Shown here in pieces: positions 209 through 26,775 of a stretch of 38,964 bases of DNA (positions within the stretch are counted from its first letter, which is position 1; each line of letters opens with the position of its first letter). Both the position numbers and the translations under genes were made by a program. The stretch is from Pseudonocardiaceae bacterium (lineage in GTDB: Bacteria > Actinomycetota > Actinomycetes > Mycobacteriales > Pseudonocardiaceae), in the NCBI GenBank assembly GCA_050699895.1, contig JBOHFY010000037.1:1-38964 (forward strand), in the 5' to 3' direction. Below the pieces are notes generated by a model. It was not told where the DNA came from. It saw nothing but the letters and a program-made list of their open reading frames with translations, and made no database searches.

Positions 209-1303
209 TCACCCAGGGGTGGGCATCAGCGCTTTCCACCTGGCGGCGAGTACCGCAGGACAGGAAATCGCCGGAACACCCAGTGCAGCGATCCGGTCGA
301 CAAGAGCAGGCGACGGCCGCAGATCCAGGCCCAGCGAATACCGGATGGGTCGCCCGACGACCGCCGCCGAGACCCGATCGATGAGAACGGCCACTCCCTC
401 GCTTATCCTGTCCGTGGGCATCAGCAGGCGGCTGACGACATCGCGGTTCCAGGCGACGGTGAACTGAGTGAGGTCATTGAGCCCGATCTCGACGCTCGAG
501 CAGCGGTCGACGATCTGTCCCAGACACAACGCTGCCTCCGGGCACTCGACCGTCACACCGATACTCGACGTGAGCGGCGCCATCCGCCGCGCGAAAGCCT
601 CGAACTCGTCCGCGTGCGCGTACATCGGCAGGACCACGGTTGGTTCTCGGGCCAGATCAAGATCGTCGACCCAGCGGAGAAACAGGTCCACCGCGCGCCC
701 GTCGAGCGCCACACGGGCACCCCGGTACCCCATTGTCGCATCGGCTGCGGACGGCACCGGATGGTGGTCGAAGAACCTGATCTCCAGCGCCTCCCGGTGG
801 ACGTCCGCCAGTTCTGCGCACAGGCGTCGGGCGTCGTCCCTACCTAGGCGTACAAGGCCTTCGACATTGACGACACCGATACCATCGGCGATGCTGACAG
901 TCGGAAGGTCGGCCGGGATCGCCACTTCGGCCAGCACATCGAGCATAGCCGACGCGCGTGGCGGATGCGCTGCGGCCGAGGGCCGGGTCCCTTCGCGTAT
1001 CTCGCCTGTGTCGAAGTCGACCAGCACATGCGCGCCGTCGGCCCACCGGCTCACGTCGACGCCGGTAAGGACCGGAACCCCCAGTCGCCACACGTTGACG
1101 GCGCTGTGTGAGTACGCACTGACTCGCTCTGGTGTCAGAACCGCGCACACCGCCGGGGAGAGCTGGTCTCGGGAGAGCGAGGTGACCCGCGCGACGACCC
1201 ACACCACGCGGGCGTCCGGATCAATCGCCAAGCCTGCCGGATCCCGGCTCCGGCGAAGTTCGCCCACCACCGAGCTCCACCCGAAAGACACGGTCTCACT
1301 CAT
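209..1303 (-). CDS. PEP-utilising enzyme family protein: phosphohistidine swivel domain plus PEP-binding TIM barrel, without an ATP-grasp or HPr-binding N-domain
   Basis: The swivel-domain signature is VSAYSHSAVNVWRLGVPVLTG..VLVDFDTGEI (His in the SH dipeptide). The barrel signatures are MGYRGAR, VLPMYAHADEFEAF and ECPEAAL..VEIGLNDLTQF. I chose ATG 1303 because it forms an ATGA overlap (1300-1303) with the stop of the upstream gene. The track extension to 1471 is Pro/Arg-rich and overlaps the aminotransferase. Confidence 0.8.
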   Translation of the reverse strand: MSETVSFGWSSVVGELRRSRDPAGLAIDPDARVVWVVARVTSLSRDQLSPAVCAVLTPERVSAYSHSAVNVWRLGVPVLTGVDVSRWADGAHVLVDFDTGEIREGTRPSAAAHPPRASAMLDVLAEVAIPADLPTVSIADGIGVVNVEGLVRLGRDDARRLCAELADVHREALEIRFFDHHPVPSAADATMGYRGARVALDGRAVDLFLRWVDDLDLAREPTVVLPMYAHADEFEAFARRMAPLTSSIGVTVECPEAALCLGQIVDRCSSVEIGLNDLTQFTVAWNRDVVSRLLMPTDRISEGVAVLIDRVSAAVVGRPIRYSLGLDLRPSPALVDRIAALGVPAISCPAVLAARWKALMPTPG

Positions 1304-2421
1304 GCGCGCGACCGCGTTTCGCCGGTCATCCGCACTCGGTGCAGGAGGTCGCGGGCATTGATCAGGTCCTCGGTGGGGCGGGCCAGCGGCACGCGGAAAA
1401 GCCGGTGGCCGCGCGCCGAGGACCAGTAGTAGTTCTGCGCGGGCAGAACCTCGACACCCACGTCCCGGCATGCGGCCCAGAAGGAGTGCGCGGTCATTCC
1501 GGCAGGCACCCCCAGAAGTTCCAGGGGGACGTTGGCACAGTCGCCGTGGTGCTCATACCCGTCGGACCGGACCAGCTCGTGAATGACCCCGCGATTCCTG
1601 CGCACGGTGGATCGGATCGTCGCGTCCAGACCGCGCTCCCGAGAGTCCACAACGAACCTCGTCAGGACGGCTAGGTGCAGCGGCGAAACATGAAGCAACA
1701 ACTGGTCATGCAGCACGTGCAGATCCTCAGCGAACCCAGCGGAGGCTGCGGTCACACCGACCTTGATGTCGTGCAGGGACCATGTCTTGCCGGTGTCCTC
1801 CACCACCATGTGCTCGACGCCGCCGGTCTGGAGCACGTCGTACATGTCCCATCCCAGCATCGCCTCCGAATGCGGACGGAAGCTCGCGTCCACGATCAGC
1901 GCGCAGTTCCTACCCCGGCACTGCGCCACAACCGCGCGGAACTCGGCCTCGGACAGGCAGAACCCAGTGGGATTGTTGGGCAGAACCAGCCACAGGGCAG
2001 CCTTGCCTGAGGGCCATACCAACCGCTCCAGCGCACGTAGTGAGCATTCGCTGACCGCCGAGACAGTCACCTCCTCGAACTCGAGAAAATGGCGGATGTT
2101 GTCGAATACCGGTTCGATAAGTAGTACGCGCAAGCCCTGTCGTCGGCAAGTCTGGGCGATTATCTTCAGGCCAGAAGAAGCAGAGAAACTCAAGTGGAGG
2201 CCAGCCGATCGCAAGGCGGACGGCTGCCCACACAAGTCGAAGAACGCTCGCAGGAAGCTGGTTTCGAGGCTTTCCTGGTTGGCGCGGTCGATCTCGTGGA
2301 ACAAATCCGGCAACGAGTGGATGATCTCTCGCTGCCGGGTGTCCAGCGGTAGTCGCGCGTGCCCGTCTGACAGGTTGATTCCGCCGGTCAGAGCCAGTCT
2401 TTCGTACTCAGTGTTGGTCAT
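1300..2421 (-). CDS. PLP-dependent aminotransferase class I/II fold enzyme
   Basis: Motifs are LVLPNNPTGF, ALIVDASFR and VVEDTGKTWSL (candidate PLP lysine). Length is about 373 aa from ATG 2421 (MTNTEYERL). ATG 2448 is an alternative start. Confidence 0.85.
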   Translation of the reverse strand: MTNTEYERLALTGGINLSDGHARLPLDTRQREIIHSLPDLFHEIDRANQESLETSFLRAFFDLCGQPSALRSAGLHLSFSASSGLKIIAQTCRRQGLRVLLIEPVFDNIRHFLEFEEVTVSAVSECSLRALERLVWPSGKAALWLVLPNNPTGFCLSEAEFRAVVAQCRGRNCALIVDASFRPHSEAMLGWDMYDVLQTGGVEHMVVEDTGKTWSLHDIKVGVTAASAGFAEDLHVLHDQLLLHVSPLHLAVLTRFVVDSRERGLDATIRSTVRRNRGVIHELVRSDGYEHHGDCANVPLELLGVPAGMTAHSFWAACRDVGVEVLPAQNYYWSSARGHRLFRVPLARPTEDLINARDLLHRVRMTGETRSRA

Positions 2422-2440: not shown

Positions 2441-3376
2441 CTACGCATGGACCACCCCTGGCGCCACCCAGTGGACAGTGTCCGGGTCCTGTGACAGCAC
2501 CAGCGCTCGCTTAATCCACCGCTCCCGGGCACTGGTGTGGGGAGCGAAGGCAGAGCGCCAGTGGACCGTGCGACGGTTGTTGAAGACAAGCAAGTCGCCC
2601 GCGCGCAGCATCACCTCGAACCTGGCCCGGGCGATCTCGCGCACCATCAGGGCCAGGATCTCTCGAGTCGCGGCGCCCTCCACCACTGTGTAAGCCGGGT
2701 CGTAGATGAGCTCCATTCCCCGAGTGGTGGCGAGCAGAGTACGGACGTCCGTGCGCACGGCATCCTTGCGCTGGTACGAGTCGTCGAGGCGGAGACGCAC
2801 CGGCGTCTCGGTCAGCAGGCTCTGCTCATGGTCTGAGAAAGTCATGTCGTCGTAGCGTGCGAGGGCCGTCATCACGCCAGGGCCGTTGCGCAGGCACAGT
2901 AGGATTACCCAGTCCGGCCGCGCCGGATGACACCCGTCCTCGACGTGCCACTGCAGTTCGGAGCATCCCGAGCCCAGCTGAGTCCGAGCGTCTTCTGCGA
3001 TGTAGTAGACGTCGTGGATGTGCCGGGGATTTCGCTTCCCGTCTATTGTGTACAGAACGCCGAGAGCGGCGGCGACGCTGCCAACGACGGCGTCCGCCAC
3101 GGGCAACTGGACGGCACACACGCGCTCGTGCGGAGTAGGCGGGATATGCCTGTCCAACGCGAGCCCGGACACCACCCCGAAGCCATGGACCGAGACGGCG
3201 TCGAGCCACGACCTGAGCGGGGCGAAGACCTCGCTGTCGGCGATTCGCCGACACGCAGCCCAGTAGCGGCAGTAGCCCTTGTGAATGCCGTGAGTGACCG
3301 ACTCGCAGTGGCGGCGAAGCCGGAACGCGGCCTCACTGGAGAGACGAGCGCTCGGCGGGACCGGAACCGCACTCAC
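2441..3376 (-). CDS. Fe(II)/2-oxoglutarate-dependent amino-acid beta-hydroxylase, clavaminate-synthase-like (VioC/AsnO family)
   Basis: ELQWHVEDGCHPARPDWVILLCLRNGPGV (HxE of the facial triad) and LLVFNNRRTVHWRSAF..RERWIKR parallel VioC ELGWHTEDAF..YVGLLSLRN and DNRRAVHGR..RWLKR, as I recall them. There is no in-frame ATG downstream of the Nudix gene. GTG 3376 gives a GTGA start/stop overlap with Nudix, and GTG 3385 is an alternative. Confidence 0.8.
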   Translation of the reverse strand: MSAVPVPPSARLSSEAAFRLRRHCESVTHGIHKGYCRYWAACRRIADSEVFAPLRSWLDAVSVHGFGVVSGLALDRHIPPTPHERVCAVQLPVADAVVGSVAAALGVLYTIDGKRNPRHIHDVYYIAEDARTQLGSGCSELQWHVEDGCHPARPDWVILLCLRNGPGVMTALARYDDMTFSDHEQSLLTETPVRLRLDDSYQRKDAVRTDVRTLLATTRGMELIYDPAYTVVEGAATREILALMVREIARARFEVMLRAGDLLVFNNRRTVHWRSAFAPHTSARERWIKRALVLSQDPDTVHWVAPGVVHA

Positions 3377-3975
3377 GGCATCCACGCTCGCTCGAAAGCG
3401 TCCAGCATCGCTTCGCGCTCGGACGGGAGGATACCCGCACGGCCGAGCTGGTACATCAGCTCCGCGTCCTGGATATTGCCCACGCCCTGGAAGTCGAGTA
3501 GATCGTCCGCGGGCACGGGGACCAGGCGAATCTGCTCGCCCGCGTCGAGACTCGTGCCTGCAGGCTCCGACAGCCCGCCTGCCCAGTAGATGTACACCGC
3601 CCAGTCGATCTTGCTCAGCGGCTGCCATGCAGTCCACGGCACCAACCGCTGTGCGGTGTATCCAGACTCCTCGGCCAGTTCCCGGCCCGCAGCAGCCTCG
3701 GGTGACTCTCCATTCTCGATACGTCCGCCGATGGTGTGCAGGCGTTCACCGACACCCGGCTGCCGCTCCGCGGCGAGCAGCACGTTCTTCTCCTTGGTCA
3801 CCGGCAGGACAAGGACGGTGTCGGTCCGGCTGAGCACTTCGAACCGGCGGCTGGTGCCGTCGAACATCGGCTGGTCCCACTGCCATGCGGTGAAGACCGG
3901 CCCTCTGTAGACGACTGTGGCGGTATCAGGTCTGGGCGTTAGTGGCTGAGGCCGCATTGTGGTGCTCCTCTCCAT
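3373..3975 (-). CDS. Nudix hydrolase (ADP-ribose pyrophosphatase-like)
   Basis: A complete Nudix box is present: GGRIENGESPEAAAGRELAEESGY (GX5EX7REUXEEXGU). A GAGGA SD lies about 7 nt upstream of ATG 3975. ATG 3957 is an alternative start. Confidence 0.9.
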   Translation of the reverse strand: MERSTTMRPQPLTPRPDTATVVYRGPVFTAWQWDQPMFDGTSRRFEVLSRTDTVLVLPVTKEKNVLLAAERQPGVGERLHTIGGRIENGESPEAAAGRELAEESGYTAQRLVPWTAWQPLSKIDWAVYIYWAGGLSEPAGTSLDAGEQIRLVPVPADDLLDFQGVGNIQDAELMYQLGRAGILPSEREAMLDAFERAWMP

Positions 3976-3985
3976 GTAGGGATCC

Positions 3986-6160
3986 TCACCGCCGCCTGCC
4001 TGCGATGAGCAATCGTATTCTTGCGGTGATCCTGCGCAGGGGTCCGAAGAAGCTGAAGCTGATCACTAGGGCTGTGGCGATCGCCGCAGCAGCGCCATAG
4101 AGGTAGACTTCCACAGTCCACTTGTAGTGCTGGCCCACCGTGACGACCAGCGTGGTGAGGAGGCTTGACATGGCCAGCGCGAGCACAAGGCTGTTCATCA
4201 GCATCTGCTCGCGCAGTGACGACTCCCCCTGCGCCGAGGCCAGTCTGGTGCGCATGTACTCATAGTCGGAGTCCAGCCGCAGTATCGACCGGAGCTTCTC
4301 GTATTCACGGCGGTAGAAGAAGTCCGCGAGATCGAGGTCGTAGACCTCGGAAAGCTCGGTCGACAGATCTTGGACCGCGCGCAGGACGTGTCGCAGGTCA
4401 GTGATCGTATCGATGTTGTCGTGAAAGCGACCCAGCAGAGCGCGCACACACGAGAACGCGACATCGAGGTAGATCTGCCAGGCGAACCACCGCAGCATCG
4501 AGTGGTTAGGATATTGTTCCGAACCCTGCGGGTAAAGCACGAACTTGCTGTCCAGGTGCGGATTATAGAACGTGAGGCCGGACATGTCGGCGCCGTGGGC
4601 GTTTCCGACGCCGAGGCTGCGGAAATCGACGGTATCGCTGGTGGAGAACGCCTGAGCAGGGTTGACATGATCAGCGTAGAACACCGAACGGTGCAGTACC
4701 CGCTCGAACATCTTGTCCTCGTCGCCCGCGCTCCACCTCGCCCACGGGGCATGTCGTCCGCCGGGCCAGTCCACCAGATAGCAGACACTTCCCATTGAGC
4801 TCTCCACCAGCCCTCTAACGGCGGCTGCACTGGCCCGGGCGTACCGGGCGGCGTTCCCGTTGCAGGTCCAGCGAACCAGGTTGTCGGCGAGCCTGGCGAC
4901 CAGATCCGGAATCGAGGTCGAGGTGCCCCCACCGCCCAGGTAGTCCACGAGGGGGCCGTCGATCGTATACACACCCCCGGATTGCTGGACCGTTCCGGAC
5001 TCGGACAGGTCTACCGCGATCTCGGTCGTCTCCGCGACCCCGGTGCGGCGGGCGACGAGCGCACCATTGTCATCGGACTGGACCGGCACGACGATGAAGG
5101 TCAGGCCGATGGTGCTGCGGAATCGTGACGAATTCGGCAGCCTGCTCAGGCTGAGCAGCGGCACCACTGCGAGAACGGGACTTCCCGCCCGGGAGAGCAC
5201 GGCCGATGGGAGCATGACCGAGTACAGCCTGGCACTGTAGTCGGCCCGGAACAGCTTGGTGCGCCTGATGCCTAACAGGTACAGGAGGTTGTATTCCAGG
5301 AGTCGAAGGTCCCGGGCGTGCTGCCCACCGGACTCCTGCTCCACGAGGAACTCGCGACACCATTCACGGCCGTCGCTGGACACATAGGTGGAGATGTAGT
5401 CGCTCCGCTGCGCCGCACTCACGCTGCCCCGGTAGTTGAGCGCAGCGGAGAGTGCGGGGTGCAAGATGCGCCGCTGAGTTCCCATGGTGCTCTCGGGCCG
5501 CATCGCGGCCTGCTCGGCCGAATGCGGAAACAGTTCTTTGTGCACGTCAAGGATGCTCTTGAGCCTGGCCCCATTCTGGACGAAGGCGTGCAGTTTCGCG
5601 GCCAGGCTCGACTCGCCGGCCCTCGCCGAGTGCCCTGCGGTCAGCACGTTCCCAGCGAGCAGATCGATGGCGATGCTCCTCGACACGATCGCCCAGTCGG
5701 CGCACCGGGCGAGTCGCACCAAGCCCCCGTGGTATCGCAGTAACTGTTCCAGGCTTGCGGCATCCTCGGTCCACGAGAGCGCGAGCCCTGGTTCTCCTGC
5801 GGTCTGACGGGTGTAGACGCTGTACCGCTCGTAGTTAGTGCGCAGGACGATCTCGCACGTTTGCCATCTGCGGTCCGTCTCGGCGGGCGCTTCGCACTGT
5901 GGGTCGTACCCGAGACCAACGCGAACACCGTCGACAACGAGGTGGACTCCGTGTTCGTGCGCCGACTCCCGACCGACGTCGTCACCGAGCAGATCAGCGA
6001 ACCGTGGTTCCTTGGCGAGAGTGAGCAGGGCACCTGCGGGTGCGCCGTACTCGCGCAGGCCATCGTGAACCGAGCCCGTCAGCGAGTCGCCCCCCTCCAG
6101 ATTCCCCGACCCGTTCTCGGAATACGACCGGACCGCGTCACGGACCAACACGAGGACCAT
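3986..6160 (-). CDS. Orphan 724-aa protein: large soluble N-region, helical stalk and two C-terminal transmembrane helices
   Basis: The ORF is uninterrupted and its start overlaps the LLM stop (TGATG at 6158-6162). The C-terminus is SLVLALAMSSLLTTLVVTV - GQHYKWTVEVY - LYGAAAAIATALVISFSFF followed by a basic tail. I recognise no catalytic motif. It contains two in-frame TTA Leu codons ('taa' on the + strand at 5273-5275 and 5741-5743). Confidence 0.75.
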   Translation of the reverse strand: MVLVLVRDAVRSYSENGSGNLEGGDSLTGSVHDGLREYGAPAGALLTLAKEPRFADLLGDDVGRESAHEHGVHLVVDGVRVGLGYDPQCEAPAETDRRWQTCEIVLRTNYERYSVYTRQTAGEPGLALSWTEDAASLEQLLRYHGGLVRLARCADWAIVSRSIAIDLLAGNVLTAGHSARAGESSLAAKLHAFVQNGARLKSILDVHKELFPHSAEQAAMRPESTMGTQRRILHPALSAALNYRGSVSAAQRSDYISTYVSSDGREWCREFLVEQESGGQHARDLRLLEYNLLYLLGIRRTKLFRADYSARLYSVMLPSAVLSRAGSPVLAVVPLLSLSRLPNSSRFRSTIGLTFIVVPVQSDDNGALVARRTGVAETTEIAVDLSESGTVQQSGGVYTIDGPLVDYLGGGGTSTSIPDLVARLADNLVRWTCNGNAARYARASAAAVRGLVESSMGSVCYLVDWPGGRHAPWARWSAGDEDKMFERVLHRSVFYADHVNPAQAFSTSDTVDFRSLGVGNAHGADMSGLTFYNPHLDSKFVLYPQGSEQYPNHSMLRWFAWQIYLDVAFSCVRALLGRFHDNIDTITDLRHVLRAVQDLSTELSEVYDLDLADFFYRREYEKLRSILRLDSDYEYMRTRLASAQGESSLREQMLMNSLVLALAMSSLLTTLVVTVGQHYKWTVEVYLYGAAAAIATALVISFSFFGPLRRITARIRLLIAGRRR

Positions 6161-7101
6161 CAGCCGTCCTCCCCCAGCCGCATGTTTCCGGACAGCAGCG
6201 GCAGCACTCTGGTGCCGAATAAGTCGATCATGTGCGCGGCCTCGTCGAGATCGCGACCGCCGAAAGCGAACTCGAACACCAGATGCTCACACGCGGTCCG
6301 CTCTCCGATGGTCTGGATCTGCTCAGCCGCGTCCACGGCGGACCCGACCACCTGGCTGCCCACAGCGGACTGGACCTGCTCGGGTGTGGGACGTGTCGGC
6401 GTAACCCCGTAGTGCTTGTTCCTGAGTACGAGGTCGGCGTGGGTCACCCGCAGAGCCAGCCGCCTGGCCGCCTCCGTCGTGCGAGCGAGCGTGATCGGCA
6501 CGAAGACGACCGATCCGGGACTGCGCGGCATGGTGGGAGCATAGTTGCGCATGACGCGGATGCCCAGGATGTCGAGCCGCCTGCCCGCAGTGTAGAACCG
6601 CTTGTGCGGCGAGTAGCGCGGACGTGGCCGGATCGGTGTGGAATGCGAGGCGGGGTCGGACGCAAGGAGCTCGATCAGGCGGGACATCATCAAGGGAAAT
6701 CGTTCAACGGATGTCGCCTTATCGCACCCCAGACCCTCGTATTCTGCGGTACTCCTGCCCACACCAAATCCGAACAGGCACCGACCACGCGTCAGGTTGT
6801 CCAGCAGCGCTATCTGCTCAGCCAGTCGCACCGTGTCGTGCAGAGGCAGAACGAGCACGGACGTGCCAAAGGTGGCCTCCGGGAGGCGGCCCGCCAGGAA
6901 GCCGATGGTCAACAACGGCGCAGGGGAGACGAGATAGCCGGAGAAGTGGTGCTCGAACACGAAGATAGAACGCAGTCCGCGCTCGTACCCATGGGTGACG
7001 AGATCCAAGTGGCTGTGCAGGTCCGCGCAGTCGTCGCCGGTGCCCAGCTCATAGGTGTTGAGCGCGATTCCGAACTTCACCTCACGCCCGCCCCTACTCA
7101 C
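6160..7101 (-). CDS. Luciferase-like (LLM class) flavin/F420-dependent oxidoreductase
   Basis: The N-terminus ..VKFGIALNTYELG.. and GTSVLVLPLHDTVRLAEQIALLDNLTRGRCLFGFGVGR are typical of the LLM family. GTG 7101 overlaps the kinase gene by 8 nt. GTG 7080 (VKFGI) is an alternative start. Confidence 0.8.
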   Translation of the reverse strand: MSRGGREVKFGIALNTYELGTGDDCADLHSHLDLVTHGYERGLRSIFVFEHHFSGYLVSPAPLLTIGFLAGRLPEATFGTSVLVLPLHDTVRLAEQIALLDNLTRGRCLFGFGVGRSTAEYEGLGCDKATSVERFPLMMSRLIELLASDPASHSTPIRPRPRYSPHKRFYTAGRRLDILGIRVMRNYAPTMPRSPGSVVFVPITLARTTEAARRLALRVTHADLVLRNKHYGVTPTRPTPEQVQSAVGSQVVGSAVDAAEQIQTIGERTACEHLVFEFAFGGRDLDEAAHMIDLFGTRVLPLLSGNMRLGEDG

Positions 7102-7702
7102 CGTAGCCGAATGGCCAGCGCCGCCTCGGAGGTCCTGTCTGGCAGTATAGATCAGCGCGTGACATCACCTCGTCGAATTGGTGACGTAGATCCATCGTGT
7201 CACCGACGTTCAACAGCGTCGCTGTGATCGTCGGTATCTTCACCAGGTAGTCGTGTCGCACCGAAACATGTTCCGCAACTCGGATCTTGATCTGGTCAGG
7301 TGCCGTTCCACGCTGGTCGAGCAGCCGCAGGAGCTCGGCGCGCCCCATAGGTCGGTACAGGTAGATGTGGACCAGATCGAATTCGTGAGCCAGCACGGCG
7401 ATGATACTGGGCTCGGTGCATACGAGGACCGACGTCCTGCCCGAGGAGCCCGCGTCCCTGACATCATCGATGGACACTGCGTACCGCTTTCCCAACGTAC
7501 CCCAGATCACCAGCCTAGGACTGTCCGCAATAGCCGTGACGAAGGAGAACTCCCACGAGTTATCCGAGGAACGACGGGGACGCGTGGTGAGTTTGGTCGG
7601 GATGGCGTAGCGGCCTGAGGGGTGTTCTTTGGCGTAGGCGAGAAGCTCTGACTTGCCGGAACCGGTGACGCCGTCGAGGATCACCACCCGGGGCCGCGAC
7701 AA
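7094..7702 (-). CDS. P-loop kinase of the guanylate-kinase / PhnN-like fold
   Basis: The Walker A motif is VVILDGVTGSGKSEL, and it is followed by a Gmk-like TTRPRR..EFSFV segment. The start is TTG 7702, 6 nt after the HIT stop. Confidence 0.7.
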   Translation of the reverse strand: MSRPRVVILDGVTGSGKSELLAYAKEHPSGRYAIPTKLTTRPRRSSDNSWEFSFVTAIADSPRLVIWGTLGKRYAVSIDDVRDAGSSGRTSVLVCTEPSIIAVLAHEFDLVHIYLYRPMGRAELLRLLDQRGTAPDQIKIRVAEHVSVRHDYLVKIPTITATLLNVGDTMDLRHQFDEVMSRADLYCQTGPPRRRWPFGYGE

Positions 7703-16647: not shown

Positions 16648-18315
16648 ATGACCACCGAGACCACGGGAGCCAGCGGGGGCGTCGCCCCACCGGGCGGCAG
16701 CGCCGTGTTGGATGAGGCGCATCTGGGTGACATCCAGGGCGCGATGGGTACGATCCGCCAGGGTGACGAGGGCACTCCTACCAGCCTGTCGGCCCGGGTG
16801 AAGACATTGCTGGCGATCGTGGGCCCAGGCCTGATCGTGATGGTTGGGGACAATGATGCCGGCGCGTTCGGCACCTACACCCAGGCCGGGCAGAACTACG
16901 GCACCCGGCTGCTGTGGACGTTGTTGCTGCTGGTCCCGGTGTTGTATGTCAACCAGGAGATGGTGCTGCGCCTGGGCGCGGTGACCGGGGTCGGGCACGC
17001 CCGGCTGATCCTGGAGCGGTTCGGGCGGTTCTGGGGCGCGTTCAGTGTGATCGATCTGTTCCTGCTCAACGCGTTGACCATCGTCACGGAGTTCATCGGT
17101 ATCAGCCTTGGGCTGTCCTACCTCGGGCTGCCCAAGGTGCCCGGGGTGCTGATCGCCGCCGCGGTGGTCATCGCGGCGGCGTCCACGGGGAGTTTCCGGC
17201 GCTTTGAGCGGGTCTGTCTGGTGCTCGTCGTGGGCAGCCTGCTGCTGGTGCCAATCTTGGTCATGGCCCACCCCCCGCTGAGCACAGTCGCCCACGACTT
17301 CGTGGTACCCGGGATGCCCGCCGGGGCGGAGCTGTCCACGGTGCTGCTGCTGATCATCGCGATCGTCGGTACCACCGTCGCGCCCTGGCAGCTGTTCTTC
17401 CAGCAGTCCTACATCATCGACAAGCGGATCACCCCGAGGTTCATCGGTTATGAGAAGGCCGATCTGTGGATCGGCATCGTCATCGTGGTCCTGGGCGCGG
17501 GGGCGCTGATGGCCTTCTGCACCACCGCGTTCGCCGGGCGCCCGGAGCTCGGGCGGTTCACCGACGCCGGTGGGGTCGCCGTTGGCTTGGGAACCCACGT
17601 CAACCAGGCTGCGGGGGTGCTGTTCGCGCTCGCGCTGATCGACGCCAGCATCATCGGCGCCGCCGCCGTCTCCCTCGCGACGGCCTACGCGATCGGCGAC
17701 GTGCTGGGCCTGCGGCACTCGCTGCACCGCAGCCCACGCGAGGCGAAAAGCTTCTACCTGGCCTTCGCCGGGCTGCTGGTCTGCGCGGCGGTAATCGTGA
17801 TCATCCCGGGGAGCCCGCTGGGGCTGCTCACCGAGGGCGTGCAGACCCTGGCCGGGGTGTTGCTGCCCTCGGCGACGGTGTTCCTGCTGCTGCTGTGCAA
17901 CGACCGCCAGGTCCTGGGTCCCTGGGTCAACGGCCGGGCGCTGAACGTGTTCACCTCGGTGGTGATCGCGGTGCTAGTGATGCTCTCCACCGTGCTCACC
18001 GCCGCCGTGGTCTTCCCCGGCATCACCAGCGCCGCGATCCTGACCATCCTCGCCACCGGCGCCGCCCTGGCCGTGATCGCCGGCATCGCGCTGCTCATCG
18101 GACGCCGGGTGCGCCCCGCGCCGGCAGGCACCGATCCACCGCTGCTTGATCGCCGCCTGCGCGCCACCTGGCGGATGCCGCCACTGGCCCTGCTCACCCG
18201 GCCTACGCTGAGCACCGGCCGCCGGCTCGGGCTCACCGTGCTGCGCGGCTACCTGGTCATCGCCGCGGGCATGGTCGTCGTCCGCGTCGTCCAACTCGCT
18301 CTTGCCGGCCACTAG
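16648..18315 (+). CDS. NRAMP/SLC11-related transporter with non-canonical metal-site residues (NRMT-like, candidate Mg2+ transporter)
   Basis: The TM1 block GPGLIVMVGDNDAGAFGTYTQAG aligns to the canonical GPG..(8)..DPGN..QAG, so DPGN reads DAGA. The TM6 block VGTTVAPWQLFFQQS aligns to GAxxMPHxxxLHS, so MPH reads APW. The protein has about 11-12 hydrophobic helices. Confidence 0.8.
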   Translation: MTTETTGASGGVAPPGGSAVLDEAHLGDIQGAMGTIRQGDEGTPTSLSARVKTLLAIVGPGLIVMVGDNDAGAFGTYTQAGQNYGTRLLWTLLLLVPVLYVNQEMVLRLGAVTGVGHARLILERFGRFWGAFSVIDLFLLNALTIVTEFIGISLGLSYLGLPKVPGVLIAAAVVIAAASTGSFRRFERVCLVLVVGSLLLVPILVMAHPPLSTVAHDFVVPGMPAGAELSTVLLLIIAIVGTTVAPWQLFFQQSYIIDKRITPRFIGYEKADLWIGIVIVVLGAGALMAFCTTAFAGRPELGRFTDAGGVAVGLGTHVNQAAGVLFALALIDASIIGAAAVSLATAYAIGDVLGLRHSLHRSPREAKSFYLAFAGLLVCAAVIVIIPGSPLGLLTEGVQTLAGVLLPSATVFLLLLCNDRQVLGPWVNGRALNVFTSVVIAVLVMLSTVLTAAVVFPGITSAAILTILATGAALAVIAGIALLIGRRVRPAPAGTDPPLLDRRLRATWRMPPLALLTRPTLSTGRRLGLTVLRGYLVIAAGMVVVRVVQLALAGH

Positions 18316-18347
18316 CCTACCGATGCCCACAGAAGGAAGCTTCGGTC

Positions 18348-19778
18348 ATGAGCATGACCCCGCAGCCGCCGCGCAACACCCCGCACCAGAATCCCGACAC
18401 TGATTCTCAGGCCGCCACGTCCGGACGAACGCTGTCGTTGTCGCGGCTGGTCAGCCGAGCTGTGGTCGGGGCTCGCGGGCAGAAACTGGGCCAGCTGTCC
18501 GACGTGATCGTCCGGTTGCGTGGCGCCGACTACCCGCTGGTCCCCGGGCTTGTCGCGGACATCGGTGGGCGCTCGGTGTTCGTGCCCGCCGAGACCGTGA
18601 CCGACTGGGACACCGAGCAGGTGCTGCTGGCCAGTGCCCGGGTCGACCTGCGGGAGTTTGGGCGGCGCGACGGCGAGGTGCTGCTCCGCGCCGACATCCT
18701 CGGCCACCGGCTCATCGACATCCCCCGGGCGCGGCTGGTGCGGGCCTATGACCTGGAGCTTCTCGACACCAGCGACGGTTGGGTGCTGGCCGGGGTGGAC
18801 ACCCGCAAGAACAAATGGTGGCGCCGGACCCTGGGGCTGACCCGGTCCGCCCCGGACCAGCACGGCGAGGGTGAGCCCGCCGACTCCGGGTGCCGGGACT
18901 GGAAGGCGTTCGAAGCGTTGATCGGGCACAAGCCCTCGGTGCTGCTGCGCACCCCGACCGGCCGGCTACGCCGGCTCAAGCCCGCGCAGATCGCCGACCT
19001 GCTTGAACAGGCCTCTCGTCAGGAGCAGACCGAGCTGCTCGATCAGGTCCACGCCGACCCCGAGCTGGAGGCCGACGTGTTCGAGGAACTCGACGACGAC
19101 CGCCAGTCCCGGTTGCTGCGCGACCGCACCGACCCCGAGATCGCCGGTGTGCTGGCCCGGATGCGTGCCGACGATGCCGCCGACGCCATCGCCGACCTGC
19201 CTCAGCCTCGGCGCCAACCCGTCCTCGAGCTGCTCCCTGCGGGTCAGCGTACCAAGGTGACGGCGTTACTGGGCTACAACCCGACCAGCGCCGGCGGGCT
19301 GATGAGCCTAGACTTCCTTGCCCTGCCGCGCGACACCCCGGTCGCCGCCGCGCTGGAGCGGGTGCGCACCGCCCGCACCCTGCAACCCGAGGCCCTGACC
19401 ACCGTGTACAGCCTCAACCACCGGGGGAAGCTGCGCGGCGCGGCCAGCCTGGTCGCCCTGGTCCAAGCCGACCCCGACGCTCTCCTGCGCGCCGTCGCCG
19501 ACCGCGACCCCATCCGGGTCCACCCCGACGCCGACCTGGTCGACATCACTCTGCTGATGACCGACTACAACCTGCTCAACCTGCCCGTCGTCGTCGACGA
19601 CCAGGTCATCGGCGTCATCACCGTCGACGACGTGCTCGAGTCCTCCCTCCCGCGCAACTGGCGCCGCCGCGAACCCGCGAACCACCCCGAGCCCACCGAC
19701 GAAGACAACGAACACCAGCCCCCCGCCGACGCTCACCCCCGCCGAAGCGCCCCCACCAAGCAGCCGCCCCACGATTAG
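18348..19778 (+). CDS. Soluble PRC-barrel + MgtE N-terminal domain + CBS-pair protein (no MgtE membrane domain)
   Basis: The MgtE_N-like helical repeat is IADLLEQASRQEQTELLDQV..VFEELDDDRQSRLL..MRADDAADAIADL. It is followed by a CBS pair (..AGGLMSLDFLAL.. and ..LLNLPVVVDDQVIGVITVDDVLE). No hydrophobic C-terminal domain is present. It starts 32 nt after the transporter stop. Confidence 0.8.
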   Translation: MSMTPQPPRNTPHQNPDTDSQAATSGRTLSLSRLVSRAVVGARGQKLGQLSDVIVRLRGADYPLVPGLVADIGGRSVFVPAETVTDWDTEQVLLASARVDLREFGRRDGEVLLRADILGHRLIDIPRARLVRAYDLELLDTSDGWVLAGVDTRKNKWWRRTLGLTRSAPDQHGEGEPADSGCRDWKAFEALIGHKPSVLLRTPTGRLRRLKPAQIADLLEQASRQEQTELLDQVHADPELEADVFEELDDDRQSRLLRDRTDPEIAGVLARMRADDAADAIADLPQPRRQPVLELLPAGQRTKVTALLGYNPTSAGGLMSLDFLALPRDTPVAAALERVRTARTLQPEALTTVYSLNHRGKLRGAASLVALVQADPDALLRAVADRDPIRVHPDADLVDITLLMTDYNLLNLPVVVDDQVIGVITVDDVLESSLPRNWRRREPANHPEPTDEDNEHQPPADAHPRRSAPTKQPPHD

Positions 19779-19803: not shown

Positions 19804-20900
19804 TCAGCTCAAGCCCTGGGTGAGGGCGGCGGAGTCCGGGACCTTAACAACGGGCTCGGTCACAGAGAACGGGATAATTCCGAGAATCTGCTCGATCACG
19901 TAGTGGGCCGACATCATGGCTCCTTCCTGCCAGCCGGGGAGGGGGACGCCTGATCTCCCGCGACGAAGAAGCGGTTATCGCCCTCGGGCTGGAGCAGTTG
20001 CTTGTACGCCTGCATGTGCTCGGAGTTGCTGGGGTTCCACGCGGCCCAGCCGCCCAACTGGTAGGGCACCTTGTGCCACGCGATGGAGACGCCCTTGCCG
20101 GTGGGAACGATATCCTCGTCCGTGAACTGCCCGTGCAGCTCGGCTGCGCCCTGGCGGGCTTCTTTCAGACGGTCCTTGGGTTCCATATTGCCGAGTGCTT
20201 CGGCACAGTCGTCGAAGTTGTACGCGCCTGTCAGGGTTCCGTTCTGCGAAAAATAGTCGTTGGACGGGTACCACATCTGGGTAATGGTGTGATCAGTCCA
20301 GCTGATGCCGCCGTAGATGTTGTCCGGGTCGTCCTCCCAGAAGCGCTCGTTGGCCTGCCAACCCACCTTGCAGGTGGCCGCGAATTTCACTGCCTGGATC
20401 GCCTCATGGAATCCCGGCGAGAAGTTGGACAGCCTGGTGTTCTGGAGTACCGGGAGCGGGATGGTGCTCACGCAGTAGTCCGCCACCTCGGTGTGCACCT
20501 GACTCGCGTGCCGGTACTCAACCGCGACGCCCTCCTCGCCGAGCAGTGTCATCCCGATGACCTCGGCTTCGAGCTTGATGACCTGCTCGAGCTTCTTCTG
20601 GAACGCCTTGACAATCATGTCCATACCGCCGGCCGGCTGGAACATCGTGGCCTGCCACAGATAGTCGACCGGCTGGTAGAAGTGCGGGGTATCAGCGGTG
20701 GAGGTCGTCGGCGAGTTGCTCGTTGAGCGCCTGGTTGTCCCGCTTTCGTGACCCTGGCCCTTCACGATCGCCTTGGGTACCGGGCGGGGCGACCAGGACC
20801 CCTCACCCAGCGCATCACTCCGCGCCCGGACCCGGCGTAGCCGAGCCCCGCACCGCGCACAGCACCCTGGCCCGCTGATCGTCACCCGTACATCCCTCAC
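19804..20900 (-). pseudogene. Flavin amine oxidase / L-amino-acid-oxidase family gene remnant (N-terminal FAD domain missing, C-terminal frameshift)
   Basis: The substrate/FAD-domain sequence is QPAGGMDMIVKAF..WYPSNDYF..FVAGDQ. The conserved C-terminal GWQEGAMMSAHYVIEQI continues in another frame down to the stop at 19804-19806, with the shift inside the C-run at about 19933-19947. No GxGxxG dinucleotide-binding segment is found upstream in any frame. Confidence 0.7.
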
Positions 20901-20976
20901 CGTGCGCAGGCCCCGGTTGCACGATCTTTTTTAGATCATTTGTAGGGTTGCGGTGATCGCGCATCCTCTCCCGGGT

Positions 20977-21072
20977 CCCGCCCGCGCTGTGGTTCCCGAA
21001 CTCAACAGGAACGCTGGTCAAAGGCGGTGTGAGAGCTCTGGTGTTGAGTTCGGGAACCACAGCGCGGGCGGG
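20977..21072. repeat. 31-bp perfect inverted repeat with 34-nt spacer (MITE-like or recombination scar)
   Basis: CCCGCCCGCGCTGTGGTTCCCGAACTCAACA (20977-21007) is the exact reverse complement of 21042-21072. It lies immediately upstream of the truncated amine-oxidase remnant. Confidence 0.85.
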
Positions 21073-21445
21073 GCGCCCACGCGCGGTCGGGATTGACCTT
21101 GGACGGTGGGTCGCGGTGGAGTCACCGGCCACTTATTTGATCTTGAAACGACCGTGCCCCCGGTGGTGTCCTGGGCGCTCTTTTTTGATGGCACTTCTTG
21201 TGCACCGTGGCCATACCACGATGCGGCCAGTGACTGTCACGGTCACTTCCCCCACTTGCCCGGCGGAGATTCACGCGGCGTCTCTGGGTTCATGGGATAG
21301 GGAGGTTACCGATCGTTGTCTTTGTCGTCACCCGTGACGTCAGTCTCTCCTGCTGTCAAGCTCTCGGTAGAGGATATCGCTGAGGCATACCGCGACACAC
21401 ATTTGTCACTCAAGTTACTTGATCGACGGGAGAGGCCCCCGTTCT

Positions 21446-21901
21446 TTAGGCCAGTTCGTGGTCGTACTTCGAGAAGATCGCTGTGAGTGTTCCGACGTCG
21501 GGGGAGCCGGGTGGCAAGTCGTTCATCTCGATGAAGTACTGCTCATAACCGGCGGGTGTGATGATGCCCAGCAACCGGCCGGGGGTCTCGCCGATGTTTT
21601 CGAAGCTATGAGCAACGTTACGTGGCACGTAGAAGAAACTACCCGTGTCGGCTGATATGGAAGCCTCCCCCGCCCGGAATCGAAAACGACCGCTCAGGAC
21701 GTAGAAGCATTCCTCGTGTGCGCGGTGCAGATGGTGCGGGGCACCGGCCCCGGGAGCAAAGGTGGCCTCCGTCACGGCGAGGGCGCCCGCCGTCTGGGCG
21801 CCAGTGACCTTGATCGACCATTGATTGCCGTGGACACGTAGCGGGCGGCCACCACCGGGGAGGAGTGTCACAGGCGTCGAGCAGTCCGTAGAATCAATCA
21901 T
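21446..21901 (-). CDS. Cupin-2 domain protein
   Basis: Cupin motifs are PGAGAPHHLHRAHEECFYVLSG and GSFFYVPRNVAHSFEN. The protein is 151 aa with an ATG start. Confidence 0.85.
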   Translation of the reverse strand: MIDSTDCSTPVTLLPGGGRPLRVHGNQWSIKVTGAQTAGALAVTEATFAPGAGAPHHLHRAHEECFYVLSGRFRFRAGEASISADTGSFFYVPRNVAHSFENIGETPGRLLGIITPAGYEQYFIEMNDLPPGSPDVGTLTAIFSKYDHELA

Positions 21902-21933
21902 GGCTACCTCATAGAATCGATCATGGCTACCTC
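21888..21933. repeat. 23-bp tandem duplication covering the SD and start codon of the cupin gene
   Basis: GTAGAATCAATCATGGCTACCTC (21888-21910) is followed directly by ATAGAATCGATCATGGCTACCTC (21911-21933), with 21/23 identical. The second copy creates a 6-codon uORF (MIDSMR*) ending 2 nt before the real ATG. Confidence 0.85.
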
Positions 21934-22000
21934 GTAGGGCGCTGGGGGGGTGAAGGTTTGTGGAGTGTGTGAGATCGAGGCGCGAGATGGGGCGTGCTGG

Positions 22001-23212
22001 TCACGTTCGTTGCCGTTGTGTCTGCCGCCGGTTTATCTCGTTTGTTGGTGCGCATTGGCGATACCCTAGACCGGATATTCGCATGGCCATCCGGCGGCGT
22101 ATAAAGGGGATGTGGTTGGCGGTGCGCATGATGGCGTCGCGTAGCGGGCGTGCCGGGCGGGGGAGGAACCAGAGCCGGGTTAGCCACCTTGTGGTGGCGA
22201 TCACCTGCTTGGCGACGTGACGCTGCTGTGTGGCGTAGGTGTCCAGCACAGTGTCCGGGCTGCCTATCAAGACGGCGGCGAGTGCATGGCCAAGGGCGAT
22301 CCCGTCCTGGATGCCGGTGTTCATTCCTTGCCCACCGGCCGGGCTGTGCACGTGGGCGGAATCTCCGGCGAGTAGGACCCGCTTGGCTCGGTAGTTCTTG
22401 GCCAGGCGGTGGTGGACCCGGAACCGTGAGCTCCACACCAGCTCGGTGATCTGGGTATCGGCTGGCCCGGAGGTGTCCAGCAGAGCCTGAAGGTCAGCGG
22501 CGGTGGGATGTTCAGAAGTCTGGTCGGTTGCGCCGATCATCCGGTAGACACCGCCGGGCAGTGGGATGATGATGAACAGCCCGTTACGGCCGAGGTAAAT
22601 CGACACATTCTCGGCGGGCAGGTCTCGGTCCAAGCGAACGTCACCGAGCATGAAGGACTCGGAGCGTGTCCCTCCGGTGTATCCGATGGCGGCCTGATCG
22701 CGTACCGCGCTGTGCATACCATCGGCGCCGACCAGATAGCGGGTTCGGATCTGCCGTGTTGTTCCGGTCGGATCGGTCACGGTGACCGTGACACCTGCGT
22801 GGTCCTGGGTCATCGACTCGAACACGTATGGCCGATAAACTTGCCCGCCGAGCTCGTGGAGCCGGTCGAGCAGTATAGCCTCGGTGCGATCTTGCGCAAT
22901 GAGTAGCGCGAAAGGGTACCTGGTGGGTAGCGCCTCGAACCGAGTCGTCAACAGAGGCCGGCGGCGGGTGCGCACGGTGAATCGGGTGCAGGTCTGTCCC
23001 TCAGCGACCAGGTGTTGAGTCGCCTGTAGTTCCTCGAGTGCCTCCAGGGTGCGGGCATGCACAATGGTGGCTCGGGAGGTGTTCGCTCCGGCGGCCTGCC
23101 GATCCAACAAGATCACATCGACGCCAGACAAGATCAACTTTGTGGCCAGTGCGAGCCCAGTCGGCCCGGCGCCAACGACCACGACATCCGCATCAGTGGG
23201 TGTTTCGGGCAC
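22001..23212 (-). CDS. FAD-dependent aromatic-ring monooxygenase (PheA/TfdB-like)
   Basis: The dinucleotide fold is DVVVVGAGPTGLALA. Other motifs are GADGMHSAVR (DG motif) and LLAGDSAHVHSPAGGQGMNTGIQD (GD motif). GTG 23212 has a GGGAGG SD. The track extension to 23350 runs into AT-rich promoter DNA. Confidence 0.9.
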   Translation of the reverse strand: MPETPTDADVVVVGAGPTGLALATKLILSGVDVILLDRQAAGANTSRATIVHARTLEALEELQATQHLVAEGQTCTRFTVRTRRRPLLTTRFEALPTRYPFALLIAQDRTEAILLDRLHELGGQVYRPYVFESMTQDHAGVTVTVTDPTGTTRQIRTRYLVGADGMHSAVRDQAAIGYTGGTRSESFMLGDVRLDRDLPAENVSIYLGRNGLFIIIPLPGGVYRMIGATDQTSEHPTAADLQALLDTSGPADTQITELVWSSRFRVHHRLAKNYRAKRVLLAGDSAHVHSPAGGQGMNTGIQDGIALGHALAAVLIGSPDTVLDTYATQQRHVAKQVIATTRWLTRLWFLPRPARPLRDAIMRTANHIPFIRRRMAMRISGLGYRQCAPTNEINRRQTQRQRT

Positions 23213-23555
23213 GACAGAAACCTCCCACCAGTAATGGTACTCATGTTGCACTAAGGTTAAGTGTAGCAGGGTTGAGTATATAATGCAATAGGAGTTCCAT
23301 TTGCCTGGAGAGCGGCCCATCCCGGGTACCCTTCGGCCCGGAGGGCACACCGCGCAGGTTCGCTCCGCGGTGTTTCGCGCCGCCTGTCTAGATCATTCAC
23401 GCTGATCCACAATTCCATGATTGTCTGGTTTCTGGGGCGTGATCGGCGCAGATAGTGATCTTGGGTATGGTGGTGGTCCCGATGGGGCTCGGGTGGGCGC
23501 CGGGTTCCACGGTTCGGCCGGGTGGTGTTGGTTGGTCGGGTCGGTGGTGGGTGGG

Positions 23556-23990: not shown

Positions 23991-24010
23991 GATCATAAAG
24001 ATCGGGGTGA

Positions 24011-24161: not shown

Positions 24162-24289
24162 TCGCGTCGCTGTCGCTGCACGGTGGCATGCATGCGCCGG
24201 GTAATGGTGGAACCGGCCGGCAGCCGAGAGCGGTGGGGGGATCGGCCGCCGGCCGGGGCTCGTAGGGTGTGCGTGGCAGGGCTGGTGGT

Positions 24290-26712: not shown

Positions 26713-26775
26713 CAATCGTCGTGTTCCAATGGAGCTGCGAATGGAAGATCGCGTTTTCTGTCGCACAAGGAGTAT

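What the first reader, a model, noticed from the sequence alone, without database searches (positions are those of the whole stretch)
3986..6160. 724-aa orphan protein with CorA-like topology but no GMN motif, carrying two TTA codons
The protein has a soluble region of about 620 aa and then a strongly helical, charged stalk (..DLSTELSEVYDLDLADFFYRREYEKLRSILRLDSDYEYMRTRLASAQGESSLREQ..). It ends in a TM-loop-TM hairpin and a basic tail. This overall layout resembles CorA/ZntB-type channels or 2-TM effector modules. However, the inter-TM loop reads GQHYKWTVEVY and has no GMN. I see no P-loop, HxxxH, DxD or other catalytic signature. The only features are a His-rich patch (ESAHEHGVH) and a Gly run (YLGGGGTS).

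Two in-frame TTA leucine codons (5273-5275 and 5741-5743, read on the - strand) are rare for a genome of this GC content. In Streptomyces-like organisms such codons imply bldA-type developmental control. The protein is the centrepiece of the operon and is translationally coupled to the LLM gene.
Basis: partly seen in the sequence, partly recalled or inferred. Interest (0 to 1): 0.62.

Follow-up and report, generated by a model that had tools for sequence, protein, structure and literature searches.

The report
CorA-like membrane gate in mobile cassette
The 724-aa gene is real and belongs to a rare, unnamed protein family that joins a new cytoplasmic domain to a CorA-like two-helix membrane pore, and it always travels with the same seven arginine- and nucleotide-handling enzymes on mobile elements, so it may be the membrane gate of an undescribed small-molecule system.

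Summary
The ORF at 3986-6160 (-) is real. Both TTA codons, the C-terminal TM-loop-TM hairpin, the missing GMN and the TGATG overlap with the LLM gene are all as described. It is not a strict orphan: an exhaustive search finds 157 clusters, all unnamed and without a Pfam, NCBIfam, PADLOC or PHROG match. A deep-alignment AlphaFold model (pLDDT 91.9) shows about 550 aa of cytoplasmic domains with no detectable relatives. After these comes a helical stalk whose last helix runs unbroken into TM1, then a 3-residue loop, TM2 and a basic tail. Three weak but concordant signals tie the stalk and TM module to CorA.

In nine independent loci X lies with NUDIX (directly downstream in eight), HIT, a Gmk-like kinase, LLM, an Arg/Lys hydroxylase, an MppP-family oxidase and a minimal PEP/phospho-His enzyme. 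Gene order is shuffled, host G+C ranges from 43 to 67%, and neighbours include integrases with tRNAs, a conjugative T4SS, an IS and an R-M system. X is absent from 400 other genomes of the phylum.

Best reading (about 0.4): a ligand-gated CorA-like pore that senses a phosphorylated or nucleotidylated arginine derivative, with NUDIX and HIT as off-switches. The bldA idea fails, because TTA is common in this genome.

The parts
3986..6160 (-). X: 724-aa membrane protein of an unnamed family
   Evidence: ORF and translation. Full-length homologues. AlphaFold model with pLDDT 91.9.
5651..6160 (-). X aa 1-170: N-terminal alpha+beta domain. Residues 1-140 are occupied in only 30-42% of the 61 aligned family members, and the solitary distant members looked up lack this region.
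   Evidence: Column occupancy by 20-residue block. Secondary structure. No profile similarity to CorA or to the other X domains.
5048..5317 (-). X aa 282-371: the most conserved block of the family. A long helix is followed by a beta-meander carrying near-invariant R299, R300, F304, R311, P318, P334, R348, T350, P359 and R371. It is the candidate pocket for an anionic ligand.
   Evidence: Conservation. Secondary structure. The ligand role is an inference.
4211..4498 (-). X aa 555-650: helical stalk with the conserved E-x-Y-D-L-D motif (aa 605-610). This is the region that aligns with the CorA stalk.
   Evidence: hhalign against 23 CorA sequences: probability 65%, P=6e-5, score 40.1 against controls of 22.3 or less. 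hhalign against CRISPR-associated CorA: score 37, same register.
4046..4201 (-). X aa 654-705: TM1 (continuous with the stalk helix 629-679), a 3-residue loop (K680-W681-T682) and TM2. No GMN.
   Evidence: Hydropathy. Model. Loop not conserved.
5741..5743 (-). TTA codon, aa 140
   Evidence: Not unusual in this genome.
5273..5275 (-). TTA codon, aa 296
   Evidence: Not unusual in this genome.
3373..3975 (-). NUDIX hydrolase. Its best NCBIfam match is the ADP-compounds hydrolase NudE. It starts 10 nt after the X stop. A NUDIX gene lies directly after X in 8 of 9 cassette loci.
   Evidence: Contexts.
6160..7101 (-). Luciferase-like monooxygenase. Its stop overlaps the X start (TGATG).
7094..7702 (-). 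Guanylate-kinase/PhnN-like P-loop kinase, conserved across the cassettes
   Evidence: Orthologues found by BLASTP.
7709..8122 (-). HIT-family protein (nucleotide hydrolase or transferase)
2441..3376 (-). Fe(II)/2-oxoglutarate oxygenase of the Arg/Lys hydroxylase group (VioC, OrfP, GntD, KDO1-like). The probable GTG start at 3376 overlaps the NUDIX stop.
1300..2421 (-). MppP-family PLP- and O2-dependent L-arginine oxidase/hydroxylase homologue
   Evidence: PDB sequence hits to MppP structures at E 1e-47 to 1e-49. NCBIfam TIGR04462 at 3e-39. Start codon.
209..1303 (-). Minimal PEP-utilising enzyme: a swivel domain with an invariant S-H, plus a PEP/pyruvate TIM barrel (RFFD, RG, LPM, ExP, IGxNDLxQ). 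It has no ATP-grasp or HPr-binding domain.
   Evidence: Alignment of six orthologues.
8528..9451 (-). HTH_31 + DUF5753 (Sco1979-family) regulator upstream of the operon. It is a host-type regulator and is not part of the conserved cassette.
   Evidence: It is absent from the other cassette loci.

Best explanation
X is the membrane component of a horizontally mobile eight-gene cassette. Its last ~170-260 residues form a CorA-like module: a helical stalk whose final helix continues into TM1, a very short outer loop, TM2 and a basic tail. By analogy with CorA this module probably assembles into an oligomeric, probably pentameric, pore. Because GMN is absent it would not be a Mg2+-selective channel. 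The preceding ~450-550 residues are cytoplasmic domains with no detectable relatives. They carry a near-invariant cluster of arginines and, in the cassette clade only, extra invariant Trp, Asp, Lys and Arg residues. I read this region as a receptor for an anionic small molecule.

The co-inherited enzymes would make and destroy that molecule:
- The Arg/Lys hydroxylase, the MppP-family oxidase and the LLM modify L-arginine.
- The Gmk/PhnN-like kinase and the minimal PEP/phospho-His enzyme phosphorylate the product.
- HIT, or two NTase-like paralogues in one variant cassette, would attach a nucleotide.
- NUDIX, directly after X in all but that variant cassette, and HIT would hydrolyse the conjugate as off-switches.

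Ligand binding would open the pore and collapse ion gradients. That behaviour fits a conflict or defence role for cargo carried on integrative and conjugative elements.

Shown: the gene, the family, the fold, the conserved gene set and its mobility. Inferred: oligomeric state, gating, ligand identity and biological role.
For: - Real, conserved gene with no named family.
- Model at pLDDT 91.9 and pTM 0.89 with CorA-like C-terminal architecture.
- CorA ranks third in the Foldseek PDB search (probability 0.54, 328 columns).
- One of 61 family members hits PF01544 at 1.4e-3.
- hhalign of the X stalk against CorA scores 40.1, against 22.3 for the reversed alignment and at most 19.0 for shuffles. 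At low stringency the alignment is collinear over CorA 46-339 and X 467-713.
- hhalign gives a similar score (37) in the same register against CRISPR-associated CorA.
- Conserved positions are Arg, Thr, Ser, Pro and Phe, with no catalytic Asp, Glu, His or Cys. Clade-specific W465, W473, W476, D254, D525, K539 and R557 are invariant in the cassette clade.
- The same gene set occurs in nine loci down to 24-31% identity, with shuffled order and strand. X-NUDIX adjacency is kept in eight of them.
- Mobility and context: a T4SS with integrase and tRNA (L008), a relaxase with integrase and tRNA (L009), an IS and an R-M-like pair (L001/L002), and a ThsB-like TIR near a distant member (L011).
- Host G+C ranges from 43 to 67%. 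X is found in 0 of 60 relatives and 0 of 400 genomes of the phylum.
- Precedent: CRISPR-associated CorA has a unique N-terminal domain that binds SAM-AMP, and it is obligately paired with a signal-degrading enzyme (PMC10600005).
Against: - No CorA signal reaches significance on its own. Foldseek has no match at E<=1e-3, and X itself has no Pfam CorA hit.
- CRISPR-associated CorA mostly keeps G-M-N. X does not.
- The cassette contains no recognisable infection sensor and no signal synthase of a known class (Cas10, CD-NTase or TIR).
- A seven-enzyme pathway is unusually elaborate for a second messenger.
- PADLOC recognises none of the cassette proteins as a known system.
- The Arg cluster is also conserved in solitary distant members that lack the enzymes. 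It may therefore bind a common metabolite or play a structural role.
- The defence-island context rests on only a few loci.
Confidence: 0.4

Rival explanations
1. The cassette is a small biosynthetic gene cluster for an arginine-derived, phosphorylated or nucleotide-linked antimetabolite. X is its export channel or self-protection device, and HIT and NUDIX provide self-immunity by hydrolysing the product inside the producer.
For: - The MppP-family and VioC/OrfP/GntD-like enzymes are hallmark enzymes of arginine-derived natural products.
- Gene clusters are commonly mobile.
- From general knowledge, HIT phosphoramidases protect producers of peptide-nucleotide antibiotics.
- A WhiJ-like regulator pair sits upstream in this host.
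Against: - CorA-type pores conduct ions, and no CorA-like exporter of an organic molecule is known.
- The outer loop is only about 3 residues and is not conserved.
- Distant family members stand alone without any enzymes.
- There is no NRPS, ligase or usual exporter class in any of the loci.
- The tightest linkage of X is to NUDIX, not to the arginine enzymes.
Confidence: 0.2
2. X is a membrane-anchored scaffold or regulator, or a non-canonical enzyme, that recruits the soluble enzymes to the membrane. One example would be activating a modified arginine phosphate for decoration of an envelope polymer in a lic-operon-like logic. Under this reading the two helices serve only as an anchor.
For: - Kinase plus NTase-like or HIT chemistry resembles the logic that activates head groups for envelope decoration.
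- From general knowledge, mobile elements often carry surface-modification genes.
- About 76% of X is cytoplasmic.
Against: - No conserved catalytic acidic, His or Cys residues occur across the family.
- The stalk and the TM1 entry (E-x-YDLD, E651, Q652, N656) are among the best conserved parts. That is unexpected for a passive anchor.
- No glycosyl- or phosphotransferase for the final transfer is present in the cassette.
Confidence: 0.13
3. X is an ordinary divalent-cation (Mg2+, Co2+ or Zn2+) transporter of the CorA/ZntB type that supplies metal to the operon's enzymes.
For: CorA-like C-terminal architecture. No canonical CorA was found in this 85%-complete MAG, whereas 24 of 26 genomes searched (this MAG included) have one.
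Against: - GMN is absent and the loop is unconserved.
- X has no PF01544 match.
- X has about 450 extra residues with a conserved Arg cluster.
- The distribution is sporadic and mobile: 0 of 400 genomes.
- The window already encodes an Nramp-type transporter with an MgtE_N/CBS partner.
Confidence: 0.03

Closest known systems
CorA / MIT-superfamily divalent-cation channels (Pfam PF01544)
   Same: Cytoplasmic N-terminal part, long helical stalk whose last helix continues into TM1, short outer loop, TM2 and a basic C-terminal tail. Weak profile-profile similarity in the stalk in the correct register. Top-3 Foldseek hit.
   Different: No GMN. No significant Pfam match. Twice the length, with about 450 residues of unrelated cytoplasmic domains. 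Rare and mobile rather than housekeeping.
CRISPR-associated CorA effectors of type III systems (SAM-AMP-gated; PMC10600005)
   Same: A C-terminal CorA-like module joined to a large N-terminal domain of unique fold, with conserved arginines proposed to bind a nucleotide conjugate. Obligate pairing with an enzyme that degrades the signal (NrN or SAM-AMP lyase there, NUDIX here). Weak stalk similarity.
   Different: No cas10 or any CRISPR gene in any locus. N-terminal domains are not detectably related. CRISPR CorA mostly keeps G-M-N. The partner enzymes here are arginine-modifying and phosphotransfer enzymes.
2-TM effectors of nucleotide-signalling defence systems (SLATT, Cap15 or Pycsar-type TM effectors)
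   Same: Two C-terminal TM helices, a mobile or defence-island context and co-occurrence with NUDIX-type hydrolases.
   Different: No Pfam SLATT or PADLOC match in 61 members or in X itself. X is much larger. No cyclase or SMODS partner.
Arginine-derived natural-product pathways using MppP/RohP/MilM with VioC/OrfP/GntD-type enzymes
   Same: The two neighbouring enzymes belong to these families.
   Different: None of those pathways includes an X-like protein, a minimal PEP/phospho-His enzyme, HIT, NUDIX and a Gmk-like kinase together. No paper describing this set was found.

Membership tests
CorA / MIT superfamily (PF01544) | Significant match to the family profile | tested here: not met
   P0001 has no Pfam or NCBIfam hit. 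Only 1 of 61 family members hits PF01544, at E=1.4e-3 and below the cut-off.
CorA / MIT superfamily (PF01544) | G-M-N motif at the outer end of TM1 | tested here: not met
   The loop reads GQHYKWTVEVY. No GMN is present and no loop motif is conserved across the family.
CorA / MIT superfamily (PF01544) | Stalk helix continuous with TM1, then TM2 and a basic C-terminus | tested here: met
   AlphaFold model: helix 629-679, a 3-residue loop, helix 683-723 and the tail RRITARIRLLIAGRRR.
CorA / MIT superfamily (PF01544) | Remote homology by profile-profile or fold comparison | tested here: inconclusive
   hhalign probability 48-65%, score 40.1 against controls of 22.3 or less. Foldseek CorA 8tmc at rank 3, probability 0.54, E=0.046.
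CorA / MIT superfamily (PF01544) | Homopentameric funnel | not testable with these tools
CRISPR-associated CorA effector | Encoded next to type III cas10 or cmr genes | tested here: not met
   No Cas domains appear in any of the 14 loci inspected.
CRISPR-associated CorA effector | Homologous N-terminal ligand-binding domain with RR/DD motifs | tested here: not met
   hhalign of X domains against the CorA-1 alignment gives P>=0.1 outside the stalk. That alignment was recovered from a machine-read supplement and contains reading errors.
CRISPR-associated CorA effector | Obligate partner that degrades the signal molecule | tested here: inconclusive
   A NUDIX gene lies directly downstream of X in 8 of 9 cassette loci. 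It is a different enzyme family from NrN or SAM-AMP lyase, and its substrate is unknown.
SLATT / known 2-TM defence effectors | Match to SLATT or PADLOC effector profiles | tested here: not met
   No such Pfam family appears among the 61 members. No PADLOC hit for X.
bldA (TTA)-regulated genes | TTA is a rare codon confined to a small fraction of genes in the genome | tested here: not met
   1.23 TTA per 1000 codons. 766 of 2386 crude gene calls (32%) carry TTA. The 724-codon gene is expected to carry about 0.9.

The most novel reading that the evidence does not exclude
The cassette is a new CRISPR-independent immune or conflict system. A dedicated pathway converts L-arginine into a phosphorylated or nucleotide-linked messenger using MppP-type oxidase, Fe/2OG hydroxylase, LLM, a Gmk-like kinase, a PEP-driven phospho-His enzyme and HIT. 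That messenger opens a CorA-like pore, X, through a previously unseen receptor domain. NUDIX resets the system. This would be the first amino-acid-derived second messenger of this kind and the second class of ligand-gated CorA effectors.
Probability: 0.25. Interest if true: 0.85.

Novelty: new variant of a known kind. Interest (0 to 1): 0.62.

Why it matters
If this reading is right, it would extend ligand-gated CorA-type pores beyond type III CRISPR. It would add a new receptor fold and link arginine-modifying chemistry and PEP-driven phosphotransfer to membrane-level conflict functions. Whatever the biology turns out to be, three concrete things come out of this work:
- an unnamed protein family of about 150 clusters with a confident structural model;
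- a conserved eight-gene mobile cassette that is not in Pfam, NCBIfam, PADLOC or PHROGs and was not found in the searched literature;
- two cultured carriers, Actinomadura viridis and Micromonospora sp. NPDC049751, that make it testable.

Tried and rejected
Searches that found nothing:
- Pfam, NCBIfam, PADLOC and PHROGs on X gave no hit.
- PDB by sequence and by a 61-sequence profile gave nothing below E=0.2.
- Foldseek against PDB and BFVD gave nothing at E<=1e-3.
- Pattern-based locus scans of GTDB genomes, JGI metagenomes and IMG/VR gave no confirmed relative.
- A profile search through the word-indexed protein database added only fragments.
- Rfam found no riboswitch or other RNA in eight cassette loci, only tRNAs next to integrases.
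- The promoter and terminator scan was at background level.
- Four literature searches found no description of the cassette.

Models and comparisons that failed:
- The first AlphaFold run with 4 sequences was poor (pLDDT 54).
- hhalign of X domains 1-170, 171-280, 281-455 and 455-555 against CorA and against each other showed no relation, so there is no internal duplication.
- Many low-probability hotdog-fold entries appear in the Foldseek list and may correspond to helix 282-303 plus the beta-meander. My hhalign test against 4HBT sequences was negative, but the control set was built carelessly with mixed reading frames, so the test is uninformative.

Ideas rejected:
- The bldA/TTA idea.
- The His-rich patch and Gly run as motifs.

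Full report
**Observation.** The minus-strand ORF 3986-6160 runs from ATG to TGA and encodes 724 aa. Its GC3 is 0.80. Two homologues of exactly 724 aa align with it end to end: Actinomadura viridis at 57% and a JGI metagenome protein at 55%. The start and the frame are therefore sound.

The TTA codons are aa 140 (5741-5743) and aa 296 (5273-5275). Hydropathy gives two C-terminal hydrophobic segments at about 654-676 and 686-708, followed by RRITARIRLLIAGRRR.

The LLM stop overlaps the X start as TGATG, with a GGGGGAGGA Shine-Dalgarno-like run upstream. NUDIX starts 10 nt after the X stop. The kinase-LLM, HIT-kinase, NUDIX-hydroxylase and oxidase-PEP-enzyme junctions are equally tight.

The His patch and the Gly run are present but are not conserved even among the four closest homologues.

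**TTA.** The genome that holds the window is a 4.07-Mb, 526-contig MAG that is 85% complete, with 67.5% G+C. In 2386 crude gene calls, TTA occurs 1.23 times per 1000 codons, 32% of genes have at least one and 213 have two or more. A tRNA-Leu(UAA) gene is present. Two TTA codons in 724 codons are close to expectation (about 0.9). The bldA-type inference is not supported.

**Family.** X matches nothing in Pfam, NCBIfam, PADLOC or PHROGs, and nothing in the PDB by sequence. The word-indexed search found only three relatives. The exhaustive HMMER scan of 1.84 billion representatives found 157 clusters at E<=1e-3, with 88 at 1e-10 and 34 at 1e-30. Most are 550-780 aa. Where sources give names they are 'hypothetical protein'. 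Clusters are almost all singletons from metagenomes, and the cultured carriers are Actinomadura viridis and Micromonospora sp. NPDC049751. X is absent from 60 relatives, including 36 genomes of the same genus, and from 400 evenly drawn genomes of the phylum.

**Structure.** With four sequences AlphaFold failed (pLDDT 54). With a 61-sequence alignment (A2) it gave pLDDT 91.9 and pTM 0.89. The model has these parts:
- an alpha+beta domain at 1-170;
- mixed alpha/beta domains up to about 545;
- helices 555-585, 589-607 and 614-626;
- one unbroken helix 629-679 that runs from the cytoplasm through TM1;
- a 3-residue loop;
- helix 683-723.

This is the CorA layout.

**Evidence for a CorA relationship.** Whole-chain Foldseek found nothing at E<=1e-3. 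CorA (8tmc) is rank 3, with probability 0.54 over 328 columns. BFVD gave nothing. One of the 61 members hits PF01544 at 1.4e-3.

I built a CorA alignment from 23 actinobacterial genes. hhalign aligned X 584-656 with CorA 218-286, the stalk immediately before TM1, at probability 65%, P=6e-5 and score 40.1. The reversed CorA alignment scored 22.3, and 30 column-shuffled versions scored at most 19.0. At low stringency the alignment is collinear over CorA 46-339 and X 467-713, with both TM helices in register.

An alignment of CRISPR-associated CorA-1 proteins, recovered from the machine-read supplement of PMC10600005, gave a similar stalk match (score 37, P=1e-3). It gave nothing for the N-terminal domains. 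Those proteins mostly keep G-M-N, and X does not.

The other X domains show no profile similarity to CorA or to each other. I conclude that the C-terminal module is structurally CorA-like and probably, though not demonstrably, homologous. X fails the defining sequence tests for family membership.

**Conservation.** Across the family the best-conserved positions are R299, R300, F304, R311, P318, P334, R348, T350, P359 and R371, which lie on a helix plus beta-meander. S554 and the stalk motif E605-x-Y-D-L-D are also conserved. The TM loop is not. No acidic, His or Cys residue is family-invariant, which argues for binding rather than catalysis. This last step is an inference.

The cassette clade of 24 sequences adds invariant R252, D254, R269, W465, W473, W476, G519, N520, D525, G528, K539, R557, W558, D566, R617, E619, E651, Q652 and N656. 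Residues 1-140 are occupied in only 30-42% of the 61 aligned family members.

**Gene neighbourhood.** Nine independent cassette loci were examined: the window, L001/L002, L003 (partial), L005/L006, L007, L008, L041/L042, L043 and the variant L009. X identity to the window protein falls to 24-31% across them. All carry the same partners wherever the contig reaches:
- NUDIX, directly after X in eight of the nine;
- a TauD-type oxygenase;
- an Aminotran_1_2 enzyme;
- a PEP-utilizers_C enzyme;
- LLM, HIT and a Gmk-like kinase.

Order and strand are rearranged in L008 and L043. L009 is a variant with X, two paralogous 231- and 233-aa proteins with a GxGxR-like N-terminal motif (NTase-like by eye, with no Pfam hit), HIT, the PEP enzyme and DUF1826. 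More distant members (L011, L038, L039) stand alone.

**Mobility.**
- L008 lies between a Trb/VirB-type T4SS and an integrase next to a tRNA.
- L009 lies between relaxase-type genes and an integrase next to a tRNA.
- L001/L002 is flanked by an IS and by a GHKL-type REase_II-like protein with a type II methyltransferase.
- L011 is near a ThsB-like TIR protein.
- Locus G+C ranges from 43 to 67%.

Together with the phyletic gaps, this shows horizontal spread as island cargo. In the window the cassette reaches the contig end on one side. On the other side it meets a host-type Sco1979-family regulator and then exopolysaccharide genes.

**Partner enzymes.**
- The aminotransferase-fold protein is an MppP-family enzyme. 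PDB hits are at 1e-47 to 1e-49 and TIGR04462 at 3e-39. Members of this family (MppP, RohP, MilM) are O2- and PLP-dependent L-arginine oxidases/hydroxylases (abstracts listed).
- The oxygenase groups with Arg/Lys hydroxylases: 6daw, KDO1, OrfP, VioC and GntD.
- The PEP enzyme keeps an invariant S-x-x-S-H and the PEP-barrel motifs but has no ATP-grasp or HPr-binding domain.
- The kinase is Gmk/PhnN-like.
- The NUDIX protein is closest to the ADP-compounds hydrolase NudE.

From these identities I infer a pathway that oxidises and hydroxylates arginine, phosphorylates the product and links it to, or cleaves it from, a nucleotide. The actual product is unknown.

**Interpretation.** The closest functional precedent is the CRISPR-associated CorA. 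It is a CorA-like pore with a unique N-terminal domain that binds SAM-AMP through conserved arginines, and it is obligately paired with NrN or SAM-AMP lyase. X repeats that logic with different parts. I therefore favour, at about 0.4, a ligand-gated pore whose ligand is made and removed by the cassette.

Three rivals remain: an exporter or self-protection device of a small biosynthetic cluster (0.2), a membrane scaffold or non-canonical enzyme (0.13), and an ordinary cation transporter (0.03). The rest of the probability is unassigned.

Weak points are the sub-threshold CorA signals, the lack of a recognisable sensor or synthase, and the unusual size of the pathway. A further weak point is that the Arg cluster is also conserved in members that lack the enzymes.

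**Limits.** There was no coordinate access for domain-wise fold searches. The CRISPR-CorA alignment came from machine-read text that contains errors.

Noticed in passing
L001:13750-16305 and L002:12240-13415: Directly after the cassette in the Actinomycetota MAG lies an 851-aa GHKL-ATPase protein that matches PADLOC REase_II models, followed by an N6/N4 type II methyltransferase. An IS (HTH_Tnp_1 + rve) lies directly before the cassette.
   Followed up: partly
L009:8850-10250: Two convergent paralogues of 231 and 233 aa (33% identical) with a GxGxR-like N-terminal motif and no Pfam or PHROG hit occupy the position that NUDIX and the kinase hold in other cassettes. They may be nucleotidyltransferases.
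   Followed up: partly
L008:16895-18411 and L009:11969-13430: In both loci a tyrosine integrase sits next to a tRNA gene at the edge of the cassette. This is typical of islands or ICEs integrated at tRNAs.
   Followed up: partly
window 16648-19778: An Nramp-family transporter is followed by an MgtE_N + CBS protein. The MAG itself gave no PF01544 CorA hit, whereas 24 of the 26 genomes searched (this MAG included) have one. The MAG is only 85% complete.
   Followed up: no
window 19914-28168: A stretch of lower G+C (0.58-0.64) carries an amine oxidase, a cupin, an FAD monooxygenase, SAM methyltransferases and an O-methyltransferase. It may be a second acquired or secondary-metabolic block.
   Followed up: no
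window 10291-15076: A GT2 synthase-like protein and a GH30 hydrolase (an exopolysaccharide-type module) lie next to the regulator that borders the cassette. GC3 is higher here than in the cassette.
   Followed up: no
L038:2086-4761: A distant X homologue of 585 aa lies near an 891-aa Tubulin_2-domain protein and several small proteins with no family match.
   Followed up: no
window 8158-8487: This 109-aa ORF lies between the regulator and HIT and has no family match. Its translation is Arg/Pro-rich, with GC3 0.71, and it may not be a real gene in this frame.
   Followed up: no
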